Numbered from the stretch's first letter, positions 18,753 through 33,826 are shown. The stretch: DNA of 64,000 bases from a virus (IMGVR_UViG_3300030376_004503:7895-71894), one strand, 5' to 3'. Numbers and translations are program-made. The notes: generated by a model from the sequence alone, not told the origin.

Positions 18753-19439
18753 GTGAGTGGTTTTAGCGATTGGATACAGTCGCCCAAGAGCGAGAGAGTA
18801 TGGTTAACCAACTCGATGACCGCTTTAGGTCAATTTGCTTATGTTAATCCTTTGAAAAACATTAAGCATTGGAGCAGTGCCAAGAATTCATATGTGAAGT
18901 GTTGGGCTGCTCTTGACCAAGATTGCTTTCACTGCCAAAATGGCATAAAGAAAAGCACAGATTATGTTTATGGTATCTATGTAAGTAAGGGTAATAACGA
19001 GGTTAAATACTTATCAGTAAATTTAACTACACACACTCATTTACAAAAGATATTTTCAACACTCTTTGATGATAACAAGAATCCTTGTGATATAGTTTTT
19101 AAGATTTCATATAGACAGTTAACTAATATGAATGGTAAAAAATATAACGGATATGATATTGTAGAATCAGATGAAGAGATGTATGTAAAAGAAGTATTTA
19201 GACCTTCACCGTTGGATGCATATCAAAATATGGTAAAGGATTTTAAATGGATTGTCCCTGAAGAATTAGTAATGAAACTTGTGGATTACGACCAGAAACC
19301 TATGAGTTTAATAGATTTATTCTTACTAATCAAAGAGATATACCCTATTATAGAAGATAAGGATGCAAAGAAGTATTCAATTAGATTAATAGAAAATGGA
19401 TTATTAGATGTTAAAAAAGCAAAGGAGTATAGACATTGA
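18753..19439 (+). CDS. Putative Zn-containing ssDNA-binding/replication protein
   Basis: KHW...KCW...DCFHC motif within a beta-rich body, upstream of the ATPase. Confidence 0.4.
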   Translation: MSGFSDWIQSPKSERVWLTNSMTALGQFAYVNPLKNIKHWSSAKNSYVKCWAALDQDCFHCQNGIKKSTDYVYGIYVSKGNNEVKYLSVNLTTHTHLQKIFSTLFDDNKNPCDIVFKISYRQLTNMNGKKYNGYDIVESDEEMYVKEVFRPSPLDAYQNMVKDFKWIVPEELVMKLVDYDQKPMSLIDLFLLIKEIYPIIEDKDAKKYSIRLIENGLLDVKKAKEYRH

Positions 19440-20830
19440 GCCAGTTTGAAATAACAGACTTAGTTAGATACTTCCACAATGTAAGAAACAGTAAAGGGGA
19501 ATTGGTCCCTATTATTGGAGAGGATAAACTAGCGGTTACTGCTGCTTTATCTTATCTTCTTGAAGATACAAACTTTATGATTAATGCTTATAGTGGAACA
19601 GGAAAGACAGTGATTATGAATGCTGTTTTTAATTTACTTGAAGGGACACCTATCAAGACTACAGTTATAGAACAGTTATCTGATACTGCTTTATGGTATA
19701 GTATGGATGAGATAAATGGTTCTAGATTCATAGCAATTCCTGAAGCACAGAAATGTCCGGAAAGTATTATTGAAATACTTAAAACTTGGGCAGATGATAG
19801 ACCAGCTATAAGGAAAAGAACTGATGTAACCATAAGTGACATACGTGAACAACGACTTATACCTAAGTTTGTGTTTATGTGTAAAGCTGTAGAAAATAAG
19901 CGTGGTGATGCATTCTTAGATGCTGAGTTAGAACGTAGATATATGGTCACACATACCAATCCTACAGTAAAACAGACCGAAGATGTTATCAAGTATAAAC
20001 TAGACACTACAGCAAGACCTCAAGAAGATATTATAACAATGACAGATGAGGAAATACAAGGATTAAAAGACCACATTGCTAAGTGTATCATTAACAGGGA
20101 TGATACTAGAGCAATACAAGTGCGTAATCCTTGCGCTCCCTTCTTATTTGATATTATACCTACATTATTCCCCATAGCACGGAGTAAAGTGCATTACTTC
20201 TTGAAGTTAATTAACGCTGTAGCAAGGTTTTACCCTGATGAAATGATGACAATGGAAAGAGATGGAAAGACTTATGGGTTAGTTACACCTAAACATAATT
20301 GGTTAGCTGCTCAGATATACTTAGATACTTTTGTTACAGAATGTTTACAGATGCCTTCACACGGTATTGACATACTTAAATTAATTCCAGACAGTGATAT
20401 AGACCAGTTTGGGATGGTGACAAGTGAAGTCGTAAAAATGAGTATGAAAGAAATACAGCAATGTGCTAGACAAGCTGGTTTACCTTTCGCTGGTAAGAGT
20501 GTTACACCACTACTCACATCTTTACAAATGCTTGGATTCCTTGAAATGGAAGAAGATAACGGTAAACGATTATACTTTAAATCACCATTGATTAGAGAAC
20601 CAAGCACTAAGATAAATTGGGGTGATGTAATAGATAATACAGCAGATTTAGTTAAAGATACTTGGGGTGAAATATCAAACGAGTATGTAGAAAGACATTG
20701 TACTGATGTGGAAGTTATCAACCCCTTCACTGGAGATACAGTTCAGTTAGGCACTATGTCCAAGAAACCTTCTCAAGTTGAAACGCCATCCTACAAACCT
20801 GAAGACTATGGAGGTTGGTATGAAGGTTAA
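19436..20830 (+). CDS. AAA+/MCM-related ATPase, putative replicative helicase
   Basis: Walker A AYSGTGKT; arginine-finger-like ELERRY; C-terminal wHTH-like segment. Confidence 0.7.
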   Translation: MSQFEITDLVRYFHNVRNSKGELVPIIGEDKLAVTAALSYLLEDTNFMINAYSGTGKTVIMNAVFNLLEGTPIKTTVIEQLSDTALWYSMDEINGSRFIAIPEAQKCPESIIEILKTWADDRPAIRKRTDVTISDIREQRLIPKFVFMCKAVENKRGDAFLDAELERRYMVTHTNPTVKQTEDVIKYKLDTTARPQEDIITMTDEEIQGLKDHIAKCIINRDDTRAIQVRNPCAPFLFDIIPTLFPIARSKVHYFLKLINAVARFYPDEMMTMERDGKTYGLVTPKHNWLAAQIYLDTFVTECLQMPSHGIDILKLIPDSDIDQFGMVTSEVVKMSMKEIQQCARQAGLPFAGKSVTPLLTSLQMLGFLEMEEDNGKRLYFKSPLIREPSTKINWGDVIDNTADLVKDTWGEISNEYVERHCTDVEVINPFTGDTVQLGTMSKKPSQVETPSYKPEDYGGWYEG

Positions 20831-21107
20831 ACTCCCATATAAACCACGTGGTGAAATGCTTGCTACTGTTACAGATATTACCGGTGGTTCTAGAATGAAA
20901 GCTTTCTGTGAAGATGATAAGTACAGAATGGTACGCATACCCGGCAGACTAAAGAAAAAAATGTGGTGTAGAGTAAATGATATTATAATTATTAAGAAAT
21001 GGGCAGTGCAAAGCGACGAGAAGAGTGATTTAGTTTACAGATACAGGCCTACAGAGCGCGAAGTTTTAAAAAGGAAGGGCCTAGTCCCAGAGAAGTTGAT
21101 AGTATGA
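20820..21107 (+). CDS. eif1a: Archaeal translation initiation factor aIF-1A (eIF1A family)
   Basis: GGSRMKAFCEDDKYRMVRIPGRLKKKMWCRVNDIIII..W..QSDEKSDLVYRY...LKRKG matches the aIF-1A OB-fold signature; GGAGG SD, ATG 20820. Confidence 0.92.
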   Translation: MKVKLPYKPRGEMLATVTDITGGSRMKAFCEDDKYRMVRIPGRLKKKMWCRVNDIIIIKKWAVQSDEKSDLVYRYRPTEREVLKRKGLVPEKLIV

Positions 21108-21361
21108 ATGAAGAAAAAGAAGAGCGAAGATTACAATGGGTAGCAATCCTTAGGGAATGTGCTCAGTATCACAATGTACAATATCAGGAATGTTTGTCTC
21201 CTATACTTGGAGCAGAAGAAACTGAAGATAGTATGATGCATAAAGTATGGGCTATGGCTATAATGGATGCTGTTGGATTGATTGAAGTGTTACCTGTTAT
21301 AGAGCAGGAAGAAGAGGATGAAGATGGGTTACCTCAGCATAGACCGGGACCTATTGGATGA
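21104..21361 (+). CDS. Hypothetical protein
   Basis: ORF track. Confidence 0.6.
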   Translation: MNEEKEERRLQWVAILRECAQYHNVQYQECLSPILGAEETEDSMMHKVWAMAIMDAVGLIEVLPVIEQEEEDEDGLPQHRPGPIG

Positions 21362-23595
21362 AAGTTCCTCTGTCAGCATTTAGTACTTACAACACAGTCA
21401 ACAGAATGACTGGTGACCAGCAAATAATAGTATGGCACAACGGCGATAAGAGAGTTATTAAGTCACCACGAACCCACAAATACTATATGCACGACCGTAA
21501 TGGTAGAGAGTACAATATGTTGGGTAAATCTACTACACAATTATTAAAGGAGTATCACGTAGAAAATTTAGGAGCACTTAGACCTGAAGCTATTTCTCCT
21601 TTAGCTAAGATAGATGGACTTACTAGAAATGAGATAGAACGAGTGTGCATAGAACACCCTGAGTTCTTCACTGAGTTTGAGAGTAGAGAACCTACATCAT
21701 TAGGGTTTGATTTAGAAGTAACCTCAGCAGATGGTTCCTTTCCCTCTGGACCTCAGCATCCTATAGTTGCAGTTGGTATTGTCACTGATGATGGTCAACG
21801 TGAGACTATTTTATGGGATGGTAAGGATGATAAAAAATTAATAATAGAATTCGCAAAGTTTGTAAAGAACTATGACCCTGATATTATTTACGGTTACAAC
21901 GTTATTGGTTACGATATACCACAGTTATTTGCTCGAGCAGGGCATCACAACATTAATTTAAGGCCCTATTTAAACCGTGACAACCACGAAACATATGGAT
22001 GGGAGTCTGATTTTTCATACCATAAGAAGATGAAAGTGGATACTTGGGGCAGGTTAGTGGTTGACGTTTACAACTTTGCATCACGAGATTACGCTCTTGC
22101 TGGATTAAGTAAAAGATTAAAAGATGTGTCTAGATTTTACGGTCTTAAACCTATTGAACTAGATTTTAACCTTAATGACATACTTGATTATGATTTAGAA
22201 ACAATAAATGAGTACGTGTTGAGTGACTGTGATGCAACAAAATATTTATTTAATCATTATTTTACACAACACAAGTATATCGCTGAGGTTCTTAAAGTTC
22301 CACTAGAAACCTATATGAACTCAGCAGATTCTTTTATAACTAAAATACTTCAAGGGAGGGCGCTATTTAAAAAGAAAATTTTAACGTTTGATAAAAACAA
22401 CGAAAGGCACCCTGAAGTTGAGAGCTTTCAAGCAGCGCACATTGACCTTTACAGTCCCGGATTTCATAAGTATAATTACAAGGTAGACTTTGCGTCTATG
22501 TATCCTAGTATAGCTCTTGCTTTAAATTTAGGACCAGATACTACACGTATATTAAGATATGAAGACTATGATATAACTCAGTTTGGTTGTGAGTCCGCTG
22601 AATCTGGATTGTATATGATATTAACTATACCAGATAGTGTATTAGATAAGAATGTTATTATCAGAGTTGATTTGAAAGATAAATCTTGTTTATATACAAT
22701 GTGTAAACAATTTAAAGAAATGCGTGAACCTTATAAAAGAATGAGTGGACACGAAGCAAAGAGTAAATCTAACGGTTTGAAGATAATGGTAAACACATTT
22801 TATGGAGCAAACACTAATCCCTATATGAGTTATGGAGACATAGCTGTAGGTCTAGCCATTACAGGTATAGCAAGATGGTTAATCTTAGGTGCTAAAAATA
22901 TTGTACAAAAAAGATACGGTGATAATGCTGTAGTTTACATACATACAGATGGTGTAAACACTAACTGTGATATAGATGTAGAATGGATTAATGATGAATT
23001 AAGAAATGCAATGACAAGTTTATTCCCACTCAGTGAGTCTGAATGGATATCTGTAGATAAAGACGAGTTCACTGAAGGTATTTGGATAGCAATAGGTAAC
23101 TACGTGTTAAGAAACCTTGATGGTTCTCTAACTAAACACGGTTCTACATTTAAGTCACGCAGTCGTTCTCCATTTTACGTTAAAGTATTAAATAAATTAA
23201 TTGATGCACGTTTAGATGACAAAGTAAATCAGGATTTTATAAAAGACTTATACAACTTTGAAAATTATGAAGTAGATGACTTTTTACAATCCCGAACTAT
23301 GAATCAAAACATAGCTGATTATAAGAACGAAAATGATTTAGTAGTGCAGTTAGCTACGAAAGCAAAAGCAGAAGGGCAGAAGGTAAAGATAGGTTCTTCT
23401 TTTTATTATTACAAAACTAATGGTGGTGTCGAACTTGAAGGAAATGTTGATAGTGTAGATGACATAGACATTAAATACCATTGGAACATTATATCTAATC
23501 TGTTACAAAAGTTTCAGTTAAATCAGTGGATAAATAAAAAACCACCGATTACAGCATTAGATAGGAAACAACAAAGTTTATTGGAGTTTGTATGA
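21358..23595 (+). CDS. polB: Family B DNA polymerase with 3'-5' exonuclease
   Basis: ExoI FDLE, ExoII YNVIGYD, ExoIII YVLSD; motif A DFASMYPS; motif B KIMVNTFYG; motif C YIHTDG. Confidence 0.95.
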   Translation: MKVPLSAFSTYNTVNRMTGDQQIIVWHNGDKRVIKSPRTHKYYMHDRNGREYNMLGKSTTQLLKEYHVENLGALRPEAISPLAKIDGLTRNEIERVCIEHPEFFTEFESREPTSLGFDLEVTSADGSFPSGPQHPIVAVGIVTDDGQRETILWDGKDDKKLIIEFAKFVKNYDPDIIYGYNVIGYDIPQLFARAGHHNINLRPYLNRDNHETYGWESDFSYHKKMKVDTWGRLVVDVYNFASRDYALAGLSKRLKDVSRFYGLKPIELDFNLNDILDYDLETINEYVLSDCDATKYLFNHYFTQHKYIAEVLKVPLETYMNSADSFITKILQGRALFKKKILTFDKNNERHPEVESFQAAHIDLYSPGFHKYNYKVDFASMYPSIALALNLGPDTTRILRYEDYDITQFGCESAESGLYMILTIPDSVLDKNVIIRVDLKDKSCLYTMCKQFKEMREPYKRMSGHEAKSKSNGLKIMVNTFYGANTNPYMSYGDIAVGLAITGIARWLILGAKNIVQKRYGDNAVVYIHTDGVNTNCDIDVEWINDELRNAMTSLFPLSESEWISVDKDEFTEGIWIAIGNYVLRNLDGSLTKHGSTFKSRSRSPFYVKVLNKLIDARLDDKVNQDFIKDLYNFENYEVDDFLQSRTMNQNIADYKNENDLVVQLATKAKAEGQKVKIGSSFYYYKTNGGVELEGNVDSVDDIDIKYHWNIISNLLQKFQLNQWINKKPPITALDRKQQSLLEFV

Positions 23596-31957: not shown

Positions 31958-33826
31958 ATGTTTAAAAATGAAGTAGCTGAATTCATCTATAAGAGGACAT
32001 ACTCTAGGTGGATAGAACAAGAAGGTCGTCGTGAAGAATGGCCCGAAACAATCGAAAGATTCATCGATTTTTTAATTTCAAAAAGAGGTAAACATATACC
32101 TGAAAAAACAATTAGAAAAATAAGAAAATATATGACAGAGTTTGCTGTAATGCCTTCTATGAGGTTCCTTTGGTCATCAGGTCCAGCAGCTGAAAGAGAT
32201 AACACTGTGATTTACAATTGTTCTTTTGCTAAACTTAACTGTGTAGAAGCTTTTGCAGAATGTTTACACATACTAATGTGTGGTACTGGGTTTGGTTTCT
32301 CCGCTGAAAAGGAAGAAGTAGAGAAGTTACCTAGTATTCCTGAAATCAAATCAGGTAAAGATGTAGCTAGAGTGGTTATAGAAGACTCTAGAGAAGGTTG
32401 GGCAGACTCAGTTAAAATATTAATGAACAGTTTATATGAAGGACAGAACCTTTACTTTGATTATTCTCAATTAAGACCGGAGGGAGCTCGCCTCAGTACT
32501 ATGGGTGGTAGGTCATCAGGGCCTCAACCGTTAATTAAACTGCACGATTTCTTACGTGAAACTATGCATAATGCACAGGGTAGGAAGTTAACTACTCTAG
32601 AATGTCACGATATTGCAAATCAAATTGCAGAAATAGTAGTAGCAGGTGGTGTCAGACGTAGTTCACAGATATCTCTATCTGATTTAGATGATGAAGATAT
32701 GCGTCACGCAAAAGACTGGCCTTTCCCTATACGTAGGGCAATGGCAAACAACTCTGCTATATACAGAGACCAACCTACAGCAGCTGACTTCCTAGTAGAA
32801 TGGGGAGTGTTAGCAAAATCGGGCAGTGGTGAACGTGGGATATTTAATTTAAAATCTGCACAGAATCAAGCACCTTCCCGCAGATATGCACCACTAATAC
32901 AGGGGACAAACCCTTGTGGTGAAATAATGTTACGTGATATGGAGTTCTGTAACCTATCTGAAGTTGTAGTTAGAGAAGATGATGATTTAGATACACTACT
33001 AGATAAGGTAGAAACAGCTACTTGGTTGGGTGTTTTACAATCTACATTTACAGATTTTCCTTATCTCAGGAAAGACTGGAGTAAGAATTGTAACGTAGAA
33101 CGTCTTTTAGGCGTTAGTTTGACCGGTCAGATGGATAACCCCTCCCTAATGAACTCGGAGGTCTTAAAGGCCCTTAAATCGCGTGTTATACGCATTTCTC
33201 GTAAAGCATCGACATCACTAGGTGTCAATATGCCTGTAGCAACCACTTGTGTTAAGCCTTCAGGTACAGTTTCACAGTTAGTAGATTCAGCTAGTGGATG
33301 TCACCCTAGATATTCACAGTATTATATTAGAAGATACAGGATATCTGCTACTGACCCACTATTCAGAATGTTAAAAGCTCAAGGTGTACCTTGTCAACCA
33401 GAAAATGGACAGGATGCAGAAACAGCTACAACGTGGGTGTTTGAATTCCCAGTAAAATCACCTGATGGTTGTTTAACTAGGAAAGATATTACCGCAATGG
33501 AACAACTCAAACATTATAAGAACTTACAATTAAACTGGTGTGAACATAACGCTAGTATGACTGTATACGTCAAAGAAGATGAGTGGTTTGAAGTAGGTAA
33601 CTGGGTATACAAGAATTGGGATATCATAAACGGTGTATCTTTCTTACCATATGACGGTGGACACTATGAACTTGCGCCTTATGAAGAGATAGACCACTAT
33701 ACTTACGAAAGTCTTATAAAGAAATTCCCCGATATTAACTATGACGAGCTATCTCAATATGAACTTGAGGATGAAACTCAAGGTTCACACGAGTATGCTT
33801 GTGTAGGTGATAAGTGTGACATATGA
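31958..33826 (+). CDS. nrdJ: Class II (B12-dependent) ribonucleotide reductase
   Basis: MPSMR, YNCSF, GGVRRS, TNPCGEI, FCNLSE, TCVKPSGT, C-terminal CVGDKC. Confidence 0.93.
   Translation: MFKNEVAEFIYKRTYSRWIEQEGRREEWPETIERFIDFLISKRGKHIPEKTIRKIRKYMTEFAVMPSMRFLWSSGPAAERDNTVIYNCSFAKLNCVEAFAECLHILMCGTGFGFSAEKEEVEKLPSIPEIKSGKDVARVVIEDSREGWADSVKILMNSLYEGQNLYFDYSQLRPEGARLSTMGGRSSGPQPLIKLHDFLRETMHNAQGRKLTTLECHDIANQIAEIVVAGGVRRSSQISLSDLDDEDMRHAKDWPFPIRRAMANNSAIYRDQPTAADFLVEWGVLAKSGSGERGIFNLKSAQNQAPSRRYAPLIQGTNPCGEIMLRDMEFCNLSEVVVREDDDLDTLLDKVETATWLGVLQSTFTDFPYLRKDWSKNCNVERLLGVSLTGQMDNPSLMNSEVLKALKSRVIRISRKASTSLGVNMPVATTCVKPSGTVSQLVDSASGCHPRYSQYYIRRYRISATDPLFRMLKAQGVPCQPENGQDAETATTWVFEFPVKSPDGCLTRKDITAMEQLKHYKNLQLNWCEHNASMTVYVKEDEWFEVGNWVYKNWDIINGVSFLPYDGGHYELAPYEEIDHYTYESLIKKFPDINYDELSQYELEDETQGSHEYACVGDKCDI

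What the first reader, a model, noticed from the sequence alone, without database searches (positions are those of the whole stretch)
20820..21107. Virus-encoded archaeal translation initiation factor aIF-1A inside the replication operon
Seen: a clear aIF-1A signature (RIPGRLKKKMW, W..QSDEKSD...RY) with a very short N-terminal tail, translationally coupled between the helicase and polB. Established: a/eIF1A occupies the A site and tunes start-codon selection. Inference: it biases initiation toward viral mRNAs, which mix strong-SD, leaderless and GTG/TTG starts, or replaces an inactivated host factor. This is unusual for a mid-sized tailed virus.
Basis: partly seen in the sequence, partly recalled or inferred. 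Interest (0 to 1): 0.7.

Follow-up and report, generated by a model that had tools for sequence, protein, structure and literature searches.

The report
Archaeal virus carries its own aIF-1A
A complete 72-kb tailed virus from the ocean, and its whole lineage, carries an intact copy of the archaeal ribosome start-up factor aIF-1A next to its DNA-replication genes, most likely to keep viral mRNAs translated; I found no paper that describes this.

Summary
Confirmed. ORF 20820-21107 (+), 95 aa, is a genuine aIF-1A. It passes the Pfam and NCBIfam aIF-1A cut-offs. Its AlphaFold model superposes on Pyrococcus abyssi aIF1A (TM 0.92, rmsd 1.1 A).

The window is a CheckV-complete 71.9-kb virus record. 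The gene is a core gene, not a stray pick-up. In 39 IMG/VR contigs and 6 assembly contigs it sits in the same place. It overlaps the 3' end of an MCM-like AAA+ ATPase gene and lies upstream of PolB. Its divergence tracks that of those two genes. dN/dS is about 0.15. Every residue conserved across cellular a/eIF1A is retained.

The viral clade is monophyletic. Its nearest cellular relatives (48-53% identity) are in class Poseidoniia (Marine Group II/III). The exact donor is unresolved.

The short N-tail is real but specific to this subclade; most relatives keep a basic tail of about 12 residues.

The virus is not a classical magrovirus: Pfam found no MCM, PCNA or AEP primase.

Binding to the host 30S A site, to sustain or retune viral translation, is inferred and not shown. 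A replication role for the OB fold is not excluded.

This scan found the same thing earlier on other DNA (e1-5359194).

The parts
20820..21107 (+). Viral aIF-1A gene: 95 aa, OB fold plus a C-terminal helix, N-tail trimmed
   Evidence: Pfam and NCBIfam hits. AF2 model pLDDT 86.8. Foldseek top hit 4MNO, TM 0.92. dN/dS about 0.15.
20810..20815 (+). Shine-Dalgarno GGAGGT, 4 nt upstream of the aIF-1A ATG and inside the 3' end of the ATPase gene
   Evidence: Sequence. SD-supported starts at the equivalent place in most related loci.
19436..20830 (+). 464-aa P-loop AAA+ ATPase, MCM-like by predicted fold, with no N-terminal OB/Zn domain. Its last 11 nt overlap the aIF-1A start.
   Evidence: phrog_12057 1e-30, function unannotated. 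Only weak AAA_5 in Pfam. AF2 pLDDT 73.7. Foldseek top hits are MCM2-7 and archaeal MCM, E 1e-9 to 1e-7, TM about 0.43.
21104..21361 (+). 85-aa acidic ORF of unknown function. Overlaps the aIF-1A stop (ATGA) and the PolB start. Only weakly conserved in relatives.
   Evidence: ORF list. No Pfam or NCBIfam hit. tblastn 27-64% identity in about half of the related loci.
21358..23595 (+). Family B DNA polymerase
   Evidence: Pfam DNA_pol_B_exo1 1.6e-21 and DNA_pol_B 7e-10.
18753..19439 (+). 228-aa conserved ORF of unknown function, always directly upstream of the ATPase
   Evidence: Found at 38-96% identity in nearly all related loci. No Pfam or NCBIfam family.

Best explanation
The ORF is a functional, virus-encoded orthologue of archaeal translation initiation factor aIF-1A. 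An ancestor of a lineage of roughly 65-80-kb marine tailed archaeal viruses captured it once from an archaeon related to class Poseidoniia (MGII/MGIII), and the lineage has kept it as a core gene. It is transcribed and translated together with the early replication genes: its start lies inside the 3' end of an MCM-like ATPase gene.

Inferred mechanism: the protein occupies the A site of the host 30S subunit during initiation, as cellular aIF-1A does. It would work with host aIF1, aIF2 and aIF5B, so that initiation capacity for viral mRNAs is sustained, or its start-site behaviour retuned, while host gene expression declines. The viral protein is a bare core. It lacks the long N-terminal (minor order) or acidic C-terminal (major order) extensions of Poseidoniia aIF-1A. 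In this subclade it also lacks the short basic N-tail.

Shown: identity, fold, conservation, synteny and purifying selection. Inferred: ribosome binding and any benefit to viral translation.
For: Identity and fold:
- HMM scores are above curated cut-offs.
- Full-length alignment to solved aIF1A structures.
- AF2 model pLDDT 86.8; top Foldseek hits are P. abyssi aIF1A free (4MNO, TM 0.92) and bound to the 30S (7ZAI).

Viral setting:
- The record is a 71,894-bp virus, CheckV 100% complete.
- It has a tape-measure and a tail-fibre gene.

Core gene:
- 45 related loci all show orf228 - ATPase - aIF1A - PolB.
- aIF1A identity of 43-80% runs parallel to PolB at 45-91% across full-length matches and ATPase at 49-86%.
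- One variant (P0058) is indexed in 94 blocks of the assembly collection.

Selection:
- Median dN/dS is 0.15 over 138 unsaturated pairs, maximum 0.43.

Same constraints as cellular factors:
- All 14 positions that are at least 80% conserved in 155 cellular a/eIF1A keep the same residue in 130 viral sequences.
- No position is switched or relaxed.
- Per-site entropies correlate (Spearman 0.58).
- W49 aligns with P. abyssi W60, which sits at the P/A codon edge (PMC7005279).
- The C-terminal helix that contacts aIF5B in P. abyssi (PMC9226500) is present as H77-86.

Origin:
- The viral clade is monophyletic (SH-aLRT 98).
- It is sister (94) to a clade containing Poseidoniia.
- The nearest cellular sequences carry NCBI labels Poseidoniales, Poseidoniia or Thermoplasmatota and sit in the cellular aIF1A-RIO1-KH context.

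Rationale from the literature:
- In HFTV1-infected Haloferax, host aIF1A, aIF1 and aIF5B stay up while most of the translation machinery falls (bioRxiv 10.64898/2026.09.13.751334).
Against: - There is no direct evidence of ribosome binding or of expression.
- The gene sits in a replication module, overlapping an MCM-like ATPase gene, not beside other translation genes.
- The genome has no tRNA, and no other translation gene turned up in the roughly 31 ORFs I scanned.
- Several positions are conserved only in the viral clade: P9, G23, S24, M37, K45, L71-V72-Y73 and P90. They could reflect a new partner rather than adaptation to a host ribosome.
- The host is not identified beyond class level, and the lineage's ATPase was not found in 401 Poseidoniia genomes.
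Confidence: 0.62

Rival explanations
1. Tail-less competitor. The viral core-only aIF-1A displaces the host factor, which in Poseidoniia carries long N- or C-terminal extensions. This changes start-codon or leader preference, or shuts off host initiation, so that viral mRNAs are favoured selectively. It would be take-over rather than simple supplementation.
For: - Host-class aIF1A has Lys/Glu-rich N-extensions of 40-90 aa, or acidic C-tails of 70-110 aa. The viral proteins lack both.
- This subclade also lost the basic N-tail of about 12 residues.
- In eukaryotes the eIF1A tails tune start-codon stringency (established knowledge, not tested here).
Against: - Most members of the lineage keep the basic N-tail, so tail loss is not the lineage's defining trait.
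- Nothing here measures selectivity.
- The role of aIF1A tails in archaea is not established.
Confidence: 0.15
2. Exaptation to replication. The OB-fold protein no longer acts on ribosomes. Instead it serves as a single-strand nucleic-acid-binding accessory of the neighbouring MCM-like helicase, which lacks the N-terminal OB/Zn domain of cellular MCM.
For: - The position is invariant and the gene overlaps the ATPase gene in all 45 loci.
- The ATPase has an MCM-like AAA+ fold, with its Walker A motif at residues 53-58 and so no room for an N-terminal domain.
- No SSB or RPA was recognised among the ORFs scanned.
- Some residues are conserved only in the viral clade.
Against: - Every family-wide conserved a/eIF1A residue is kept, including the basic RIPGKLKKxxW loop and W49, with none relaxed or switched. 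This is not expected after a change of function.
- The helical C-terminal subdomain specific to a/eIF1A is retained.
Confidence: 0.12
3. General RNA chaperone or cold-shock-like role. This would resemble what has been proposed for bacterial IF1 and the CspA family. The protein would help the structured, AT-rich viral transcripts rather than acting specifically in initiation.
For: The OB fold is of the S1/IF1 type (with IF1 structures among the hits). The setting is a cold marine habitat. That IF1 has chaperone-like activity is my own knowledge and was not tested.
Against: The C-terminal helical domain and the residues conserved for the ribosomal A site are kept under strong selection. A generic chaperone would not need them.
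Confidence: 0.07
4. Passenger or artefact. The gene would be a recent accidental capture, a cellular contaminant, an assembly chimera, or a decaying gene.
For: None found.
Against: - The synteny is the same in 45 independent contigs from many samples.
- The reading frames are intact.
- dN/dS is about 0.15.
- The viral clade is monophyletic and deeply diverged, at no more than 53% identity to any cellular sequence among 1.84 billion representatives.
Confidence: 0.01

Closest known systems
Cellular archaeal aIF-1A (P. abyssi PDB 4MNO, 5JB3, 7ZAI; M. jannaschii 1JT8)
   Same: Same family by HMM. Same OB fold plus C-terminal helix (TM 0.92). All family-wide conserved residues are present, including the basic loop and the Trp equivalent to P. 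abyssi W60.
   Different: - It is encoded by a virus.
- It is 38-45% identical to the solved proteins.
- The N-tail is 10-13 residues shorter in this subclade.
- It is not in the cellular aIF1A-RIO1-KH gene context.
aIF-1A of class Poseidoniia (MGII/MGIII), the nearest cellular relatives
   Same: 48-53% identity to the 45-genome minor order. Shared motifs LPYKPKGEMFAV and IPE.LDI. The viral clade is sister to the clade that holds Poseidoniia.
   Different: - The cellular proteins carry long Lys/Glu-rich N-extensions (minor order) or acidic C-tails ending DIDSFFG or DIDALFA (major order).
- They have a one-residue shorter WxFQDxKAD loop.
- The viral proteins are core-only and keep the commoner WxVQSDxKxD form.
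eIF1A and other initiation factors encoded by giant viruses (Klosneuvirinae, Tupanvirus), and IF1/IF3 genes reported in huge phages (my own knowledge; an IF1 annotation in archaeal proviruses is listed in PMC13573593)
   Same: A virus carries its own homologue of the universal A-site initiation factor, presumably to support translation of its own mRNAs.
   Different: - Here the genome is only about 72 kb and has no tRNA; no other translation gene turned up in the ORFs scanned.
- The factor is a lineage-wide core gene fused into the replication operon.
- The host is an archaeon.
Magroviruses (Philosof et al. 2017, PMC5434244)
   Same: Marine tailed dsDNA viruses with a PolB, linked to Poseidoniia-type archaea.
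   Different: - Magroviruses are about 100 kb and all encode MCM, clamp, RFC, AEP primase, RadA and SSB.
- This record is 72 kb, and Pfam MCM, PCNA and AEP models find nothing.
- Magrovirus papers do not mention aIF-1A.

Membership tests
a/eIF1A (Pfam PF01176; NCBIfam NF003084, TIGR00523) | Score above the curated family threshold | tested here: met
   PF01176 scores 50.4 against 30.2. NF003084 scores 103.7 against 91. The TIGR00523 equivalog scores 97.4, just under its 102.9 cut-off.
a/eIF1A (Pfam PF01176; NCBIfam NF003084, TIGR00523) | Five-stranded OB fold followed by the a/eIF1A-specific C-terminal helical subdomain, which bacterial IF1 lacks | tested here: met
   The AF2 model has strands 12-74 and a helix at 77-86. 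Foldseek gives 4MNO at TM 0.92 and rmsd 1.1 A over 94 columns. Bacterial IF1 structures align over only about 66 columns.
a/eIF1A (Pfam PF01176; NCBIfam NF003084, TIGR00523) | Family-wide conserved residues: the basic R-I-P-G-K-x-K/R loop followed by Trp, plus the other invariant positions | tested here: met
   P6, G22, C30, D32, R36, R39, I40, G42, W49, D54, W61, K68, D70 and Y75 are conserved in both the cellular and the viral sets. None is switched or relaxed.
a/eIF1A (Pfam PF01176; NCBIfam NF003084, TIGR00523) | Binds the A site of the small ribosomal subunit and acts in initiation | not testable with these tools
   Inferred only from conservation and fold.
Cellular archaeal aIF1A orthologue (housekeeping copy) | Chromosomal context, typically aIF1A-RIO1 kinase-KH protein | tested here: not met
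   The Poseidoniia copies have that context. The gene here lies between an MCM-like ATPase and PolB in a virus record.
Magrovirus (Philosof 2017) | Genome of about 100 kb encoding MCM, sliding clamp, RFC, AEP primase, RadA and SSB besides PolB | tested here: not met
   The record is 71.9 kb and CheckV 100% complete. Pfam MCM, PCNA_N and DNA_primase_S give no match at E 0.01. RFC, RadA and SSB were not searched by family. The ATPase is MCM-like only at fold level.
Bacterial IF1 | OB fold of about 70 aa only; the best HMM match is IF-1 (infA) | tested here: not met
   All six NCBIfam hits are archaeal or eukaryotic IF-1A models. The C-terminal helix is present.

The most novel reading that the evidence does not exclude
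The aIF-1A homologue has a second or replacement job in replication. It would be a trans-acting OB-fold partner of an MCM-like helicase that has lost its own N-terminal OB/Zn domain, made in fixed stoichiometry by translational coupling. Alternatively it could physically couple viral genome replication to translation.
Probability: 0.1. Interest if true: 0.85.

Novelty: new member of a known kind. Interest (0 to 1): 0.6.

Why it matters
Translation factors in viruses are known mainly from giant viruses and huge phages. Here a universal initiation factor is a core gene, maintained over a long time, in ordinary-sized tailed viruses of some of the most abundant planktonic archaea.

- It gives a marker gene and a host clue (Poseidoniia-type archaea) for a widespread viral lineage that I could not match to a described group and that is distinct from magroviruses.
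- It offers a natural 'minimal' aIF-1A, with and without the N-tail, for testing what the tails of a/eIF1A do in archaeal start-site selection.
- Together with the report that host aIF1A is sustained in late HFTV1 infection, it suggests that A-site factor supply may limit archaeal virus translation.

Tried and rejected
- tblastn of the protein against 50,697 GenBank phage records gave no match. PolB there reaches only about 23% identity. The named Poseidoniales virus PP497040 is not in that collection, so these blanks say little.
- The ESM Atlas gave only generic aIF1A clusters.
- The contexts of P0101 and P0102 were too short to be useful.
- The genome search does not accept a taxon name, and it hides names for genomes reached through loci. 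The two orders within the class therefore could not be named directly. 'Minor order = MGIII' remains my inference, from its size (45 species against several hundred) and from NCBI labels.
- The viral class II RNR as a host clue was uninformative: one hit at 47% identity in one minor-order genome and none in 61 major-order genomes.
- The lineage's ATPase was not found in 401 Poseidoniia genomes, so there is no provirus or co-binning evidence.
- An AU test could not separate 'sister to the minor order' from 'sister to the wider clade' (p 0.46).
- Sequencing runs: no RNA holder is listed.
- Complex prediction of the ATPase with aIF-1A returned no answer (score 0.01). This is not evidence either way.
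- The papers by Zhou et al. 2023 and Haro-Moreno et al. 2017 are not held.

Full report
**Observation.**
The ORF at 20820-21107 (+) encodes 95 residues.
- It matches Pfam eIF-1a over the whole model, at 50.4 bits against a cut-off of 30.2.
- It matches the NCBIfam aIF-1A subfamily NF003084, at 103.7 bits against a cut-off of 91. The TIGR00523 equivalog scores 97.4, just below its 102.9 cut-off.
- Against PDB sequences it aligns end to end with M. jannaschii aIF1A (1JT8, E 1e-23) and P. abyssi aIF1A (E 1e-20).
- An AlphaFold2 model built on a 75-row alignment has mean pLDDT 86.8 and shows a five-stranded barrel plus a C-terminal helix.
- Foldseek ranks P. abyssi aIF1A first, both free (4MNO, TM 0.92, rmsd 1.1 A) and on the 30S subunit (7ZAI). 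Eukaryotic eIF1A in 43S/48S complexes follow. Bacterial IF1 covers only the barrel.

**Coupling.**
- GGAGGT lies at 20810-20815, 4 nt before the ATG.
- The ORF overlaps the stop of the upstream 464-aa gene by 11 nt.
- It shares an ATGA with the next ORF, which in turn overlaps the PolB start.

**It is a virus.**
- The window is bases 7895-71894 of a 71,894-bp IMG/VR record that CheckV rates 100% complete.
- The minus-strand half holds a tape-measure protein and a tail-fibre-like protein.
- The plus-strand half holds a DNA methylase, a RecU-like resolvase, PolB, glycosyltransferases, an epimerase and a class II RNR.
- No tRNA gene was found.

**It is a core gene of a lineage.**
- A word-indexed protein search returned 98 clusters at 52-92% identity, all from marine metagenomes.
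- Every context I opened was viral and syntenic, including proteins with a long basic N-tail that look 'cellular' at first sight. The order was RecU ... orf228 - ATPase (459-499 aa) - aIF1A - small ORFs - PolB - PDDEXK - GT1.
- A scan of IMG/VR with an alignment found 39 contigs. The longest run 60-81 kb.
- tblastn of the window's neighbours shows the same order in all 45 loci. aIF1A identity of 43-80% moves in step with PolB (45-91% where the match is full-length) and the ATPase (49-86%).
- This is the signature of one old capture followed by vertical descent.
- One variant alone is indexed in 94 blocks of the assembly collection. Near-identical DNA occurs in marine metagenomes of several studies.

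**Selection and constraints.**
- Nei-Gojobori dN/dS over 138 pairs with unsaturated dS has a median of 0.15 and a maximum of 0.43.
- I compared weighted residue profiles of 130 viral and 155 cellular a/eIF1A sequences.
- All 14 positions that are at least 80% conserved in cells have the same residue conserved in the viruses: P6, G22, C30, D32, R36, R39, I40, G42, W49, D54, W61, K68, D70 and Y75.
- No position is switched or relaxed. Per-site entropies correlate (Spearman 0.58).
- The C-terminal helix of aIF1A, which contacts aIF5B in P. abyssi (PMC9226500), is present.
- There are also positions conserved only in the viral clade: P9, G23, S24, M37, K45, L71-Y73 and P90.

**N-tail.**
- I used SD-supported starts in 42 loci.
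- About 30 genomes encode 30-35 residues before the GGSR motif. That is a Lys/Ser-rich tail of about 10-14 residues, similar in length to cellular aIF1A, and it is encoded inside the 3' end of the ATPase gene in another frame.
- The window and its close relatives (L077, L025, L079, L091) encode only 19-22 residues.
- The short tail is therefore real but derived within one subclade.
- In every locus the aIF1A start lies upstream of the ATPase stop, so the overlap itself is conserved.

**Origin.**
- An exhaustive HMMER search of 1.84 billion cluster representatives found nothing above 53% identity outside the viral cluster.
- The best cellular hits belong to a cluster whose NCBI member is labelled 'Candidatus Poseidoniales archaeon'. 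They lie in the classical aIF1A - RIO1 kinase - KH protein context.
- From that genome I searched its GTDB order (45 genomes, 40 with a match): most matches are 48-53% identical, and two divergent genomes reach only 41-44%. I also searched a 401-genome sample of its class, in which the other, much larger order is 40-44% identical.
- Labels for members of both orders are Poseidoniales, Poseidoniia, Thermoplasmatota, Euryarchaeota or 'marine group II/III'.
- The class is therefore Poseidoniia.
- I infer, without proof, that the small order is MGIII and the large one is MGII.
- In a 129-row maximum-likelihood tree the viral sequences form one clade (SH-aLRT 98). That clade is sister (94) to a clade (95) holding both Poseidoniia orders and some unnamed sequences.
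- An AU test does not reject a viral plus minor-order clade (p 0.46).
- The alignment is short (101 columns), so the donor is unresolved below 'Poseidoniia-related'.
- The viral proteins share LPYKPKGEMFAV and IPE.LDI with the minor order. They keep the commoner WxVQSDxKxD loop rather than the one-residue-shorter Poseidoniia form.

**Neighbours.**
- The 464-aa ATPase has no significant sequence family. Pfam gives only weak AAA_5, PHROGs gives phrog_12057 (unannotated), and PDB sequences give nothing.
- Its AF2 model (pLDDT 73.7) is closest to MCM subunits (E 1e-9 to 1e-7, TM about 0.43).
- Its Walker A motif is at residues 53-58, so it lacks the N-terminal OB/Zn domain of MCM.
- It also raises the rival idea that the adjacent OB-fold protein works with it.

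**Not a magrovirus.**
- Magroviruses as defined in PMC5434244 are about 100 kb and all encode MCM, clamp, RFC, AEP primase, RadA and SSB.
- Pfam MCM, PCNA_N and DNA_primase_S find nothing in this complete record.

**Literature.**
- None of the magrovirus, Poseidoniales-virus or archaeal Caudoviricetes papers I could open mentions an initiation factor.
- A 2026 provirus survey lists 'translation initiation factor IF1' among genes of five archaeal proviruses, without further analysis (PMC13573593).
- A 2026 preprint reports that host aIF1A, aIF1 and aIF5B are sustained or slightly raised late in HFTV1 infection while most translation genes fall. This gives a rationale for a virus to carry its own copy.

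**Earlier findings of this scan.**
- The same lineage feature was reported on another genome, with a follow-up that reached the same reading (e1-5359194).
- Two first-reader notes concern further genomes (e1-5908495, e1-5908507).

**Conclusion.**
- Identity, viral ownership, lineage-wide conservation and purifying selection are shown.
- Canonical A-site binding on host 30S subunits is the best-supported function, because all family constraints are kept. It remains an inference.
- Whether the factor merely supplements, or selectively retunes, initiation cannot be decided here.
- A replication-linked role is a minority possibility.

Noticed in passing
L067-L072, L075, L076 (large order of class Poseidoniia): The cellular aIF-1A here carries an acidic C-terminal tail of 70-110 residues ending DDDDIDSFFG or DDDDIDALFA. 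This resembles the eukaryotic eIF1A DIDDI tail, although PMC9226500 states that archaeal aIF1A has no such tail. The scan noted this earlier (e1-902127).
   Followed up: partly
L037-L066 (45-genome order of class Poseidoniia): aIF-1A in this order has a Lys/Glu-rich N-terminal extension of 40-90 residues and no C-tail. Locus GC is mostly 34-44%, with two at 59-67%.
   Followed up: no
window 19436-20830: The 464-aa ATPase has no sequence family, but its predicted fold is MCM-like AAA+ plus helical and winged-helix-like C-terminal parts. It has no MCM N-terminal domain.
   Followed up: partly
P0047 (676-bp metagenome contig): This aIF-1A has an N-terminal half like the long-tailed viral clade and a C-terminal half like the window's clade. 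It is either a natural recombinant or an assembly chimera.
   Followed up: no
L009 / L033 (contig NZMJ01000097.1, G001:C53): A viral contig of this lineage (ATPase - aIF1A - PolB - GT1) is binned in a MAG labelled Maricaulis sp., an alphaproteobacterium. This is probably mis-binning.
   Followed up: partly
L016 and L017: MAGs labelled Methanophagales and Nitrosotalea carry almost identical aIF-1A. This suggests contamination or mislabelling of one of them.
   Followed up: no
G032:C24:14298-16217: One genome of the 45-genome order has a class II RNR 47% identical to the viral RNR (window 31958-33826). The other 44 genomes have none. It may be another co-binned virus or a gene transfer.
   Followed up: no
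Its fold was not tested.
   Followed up: partly
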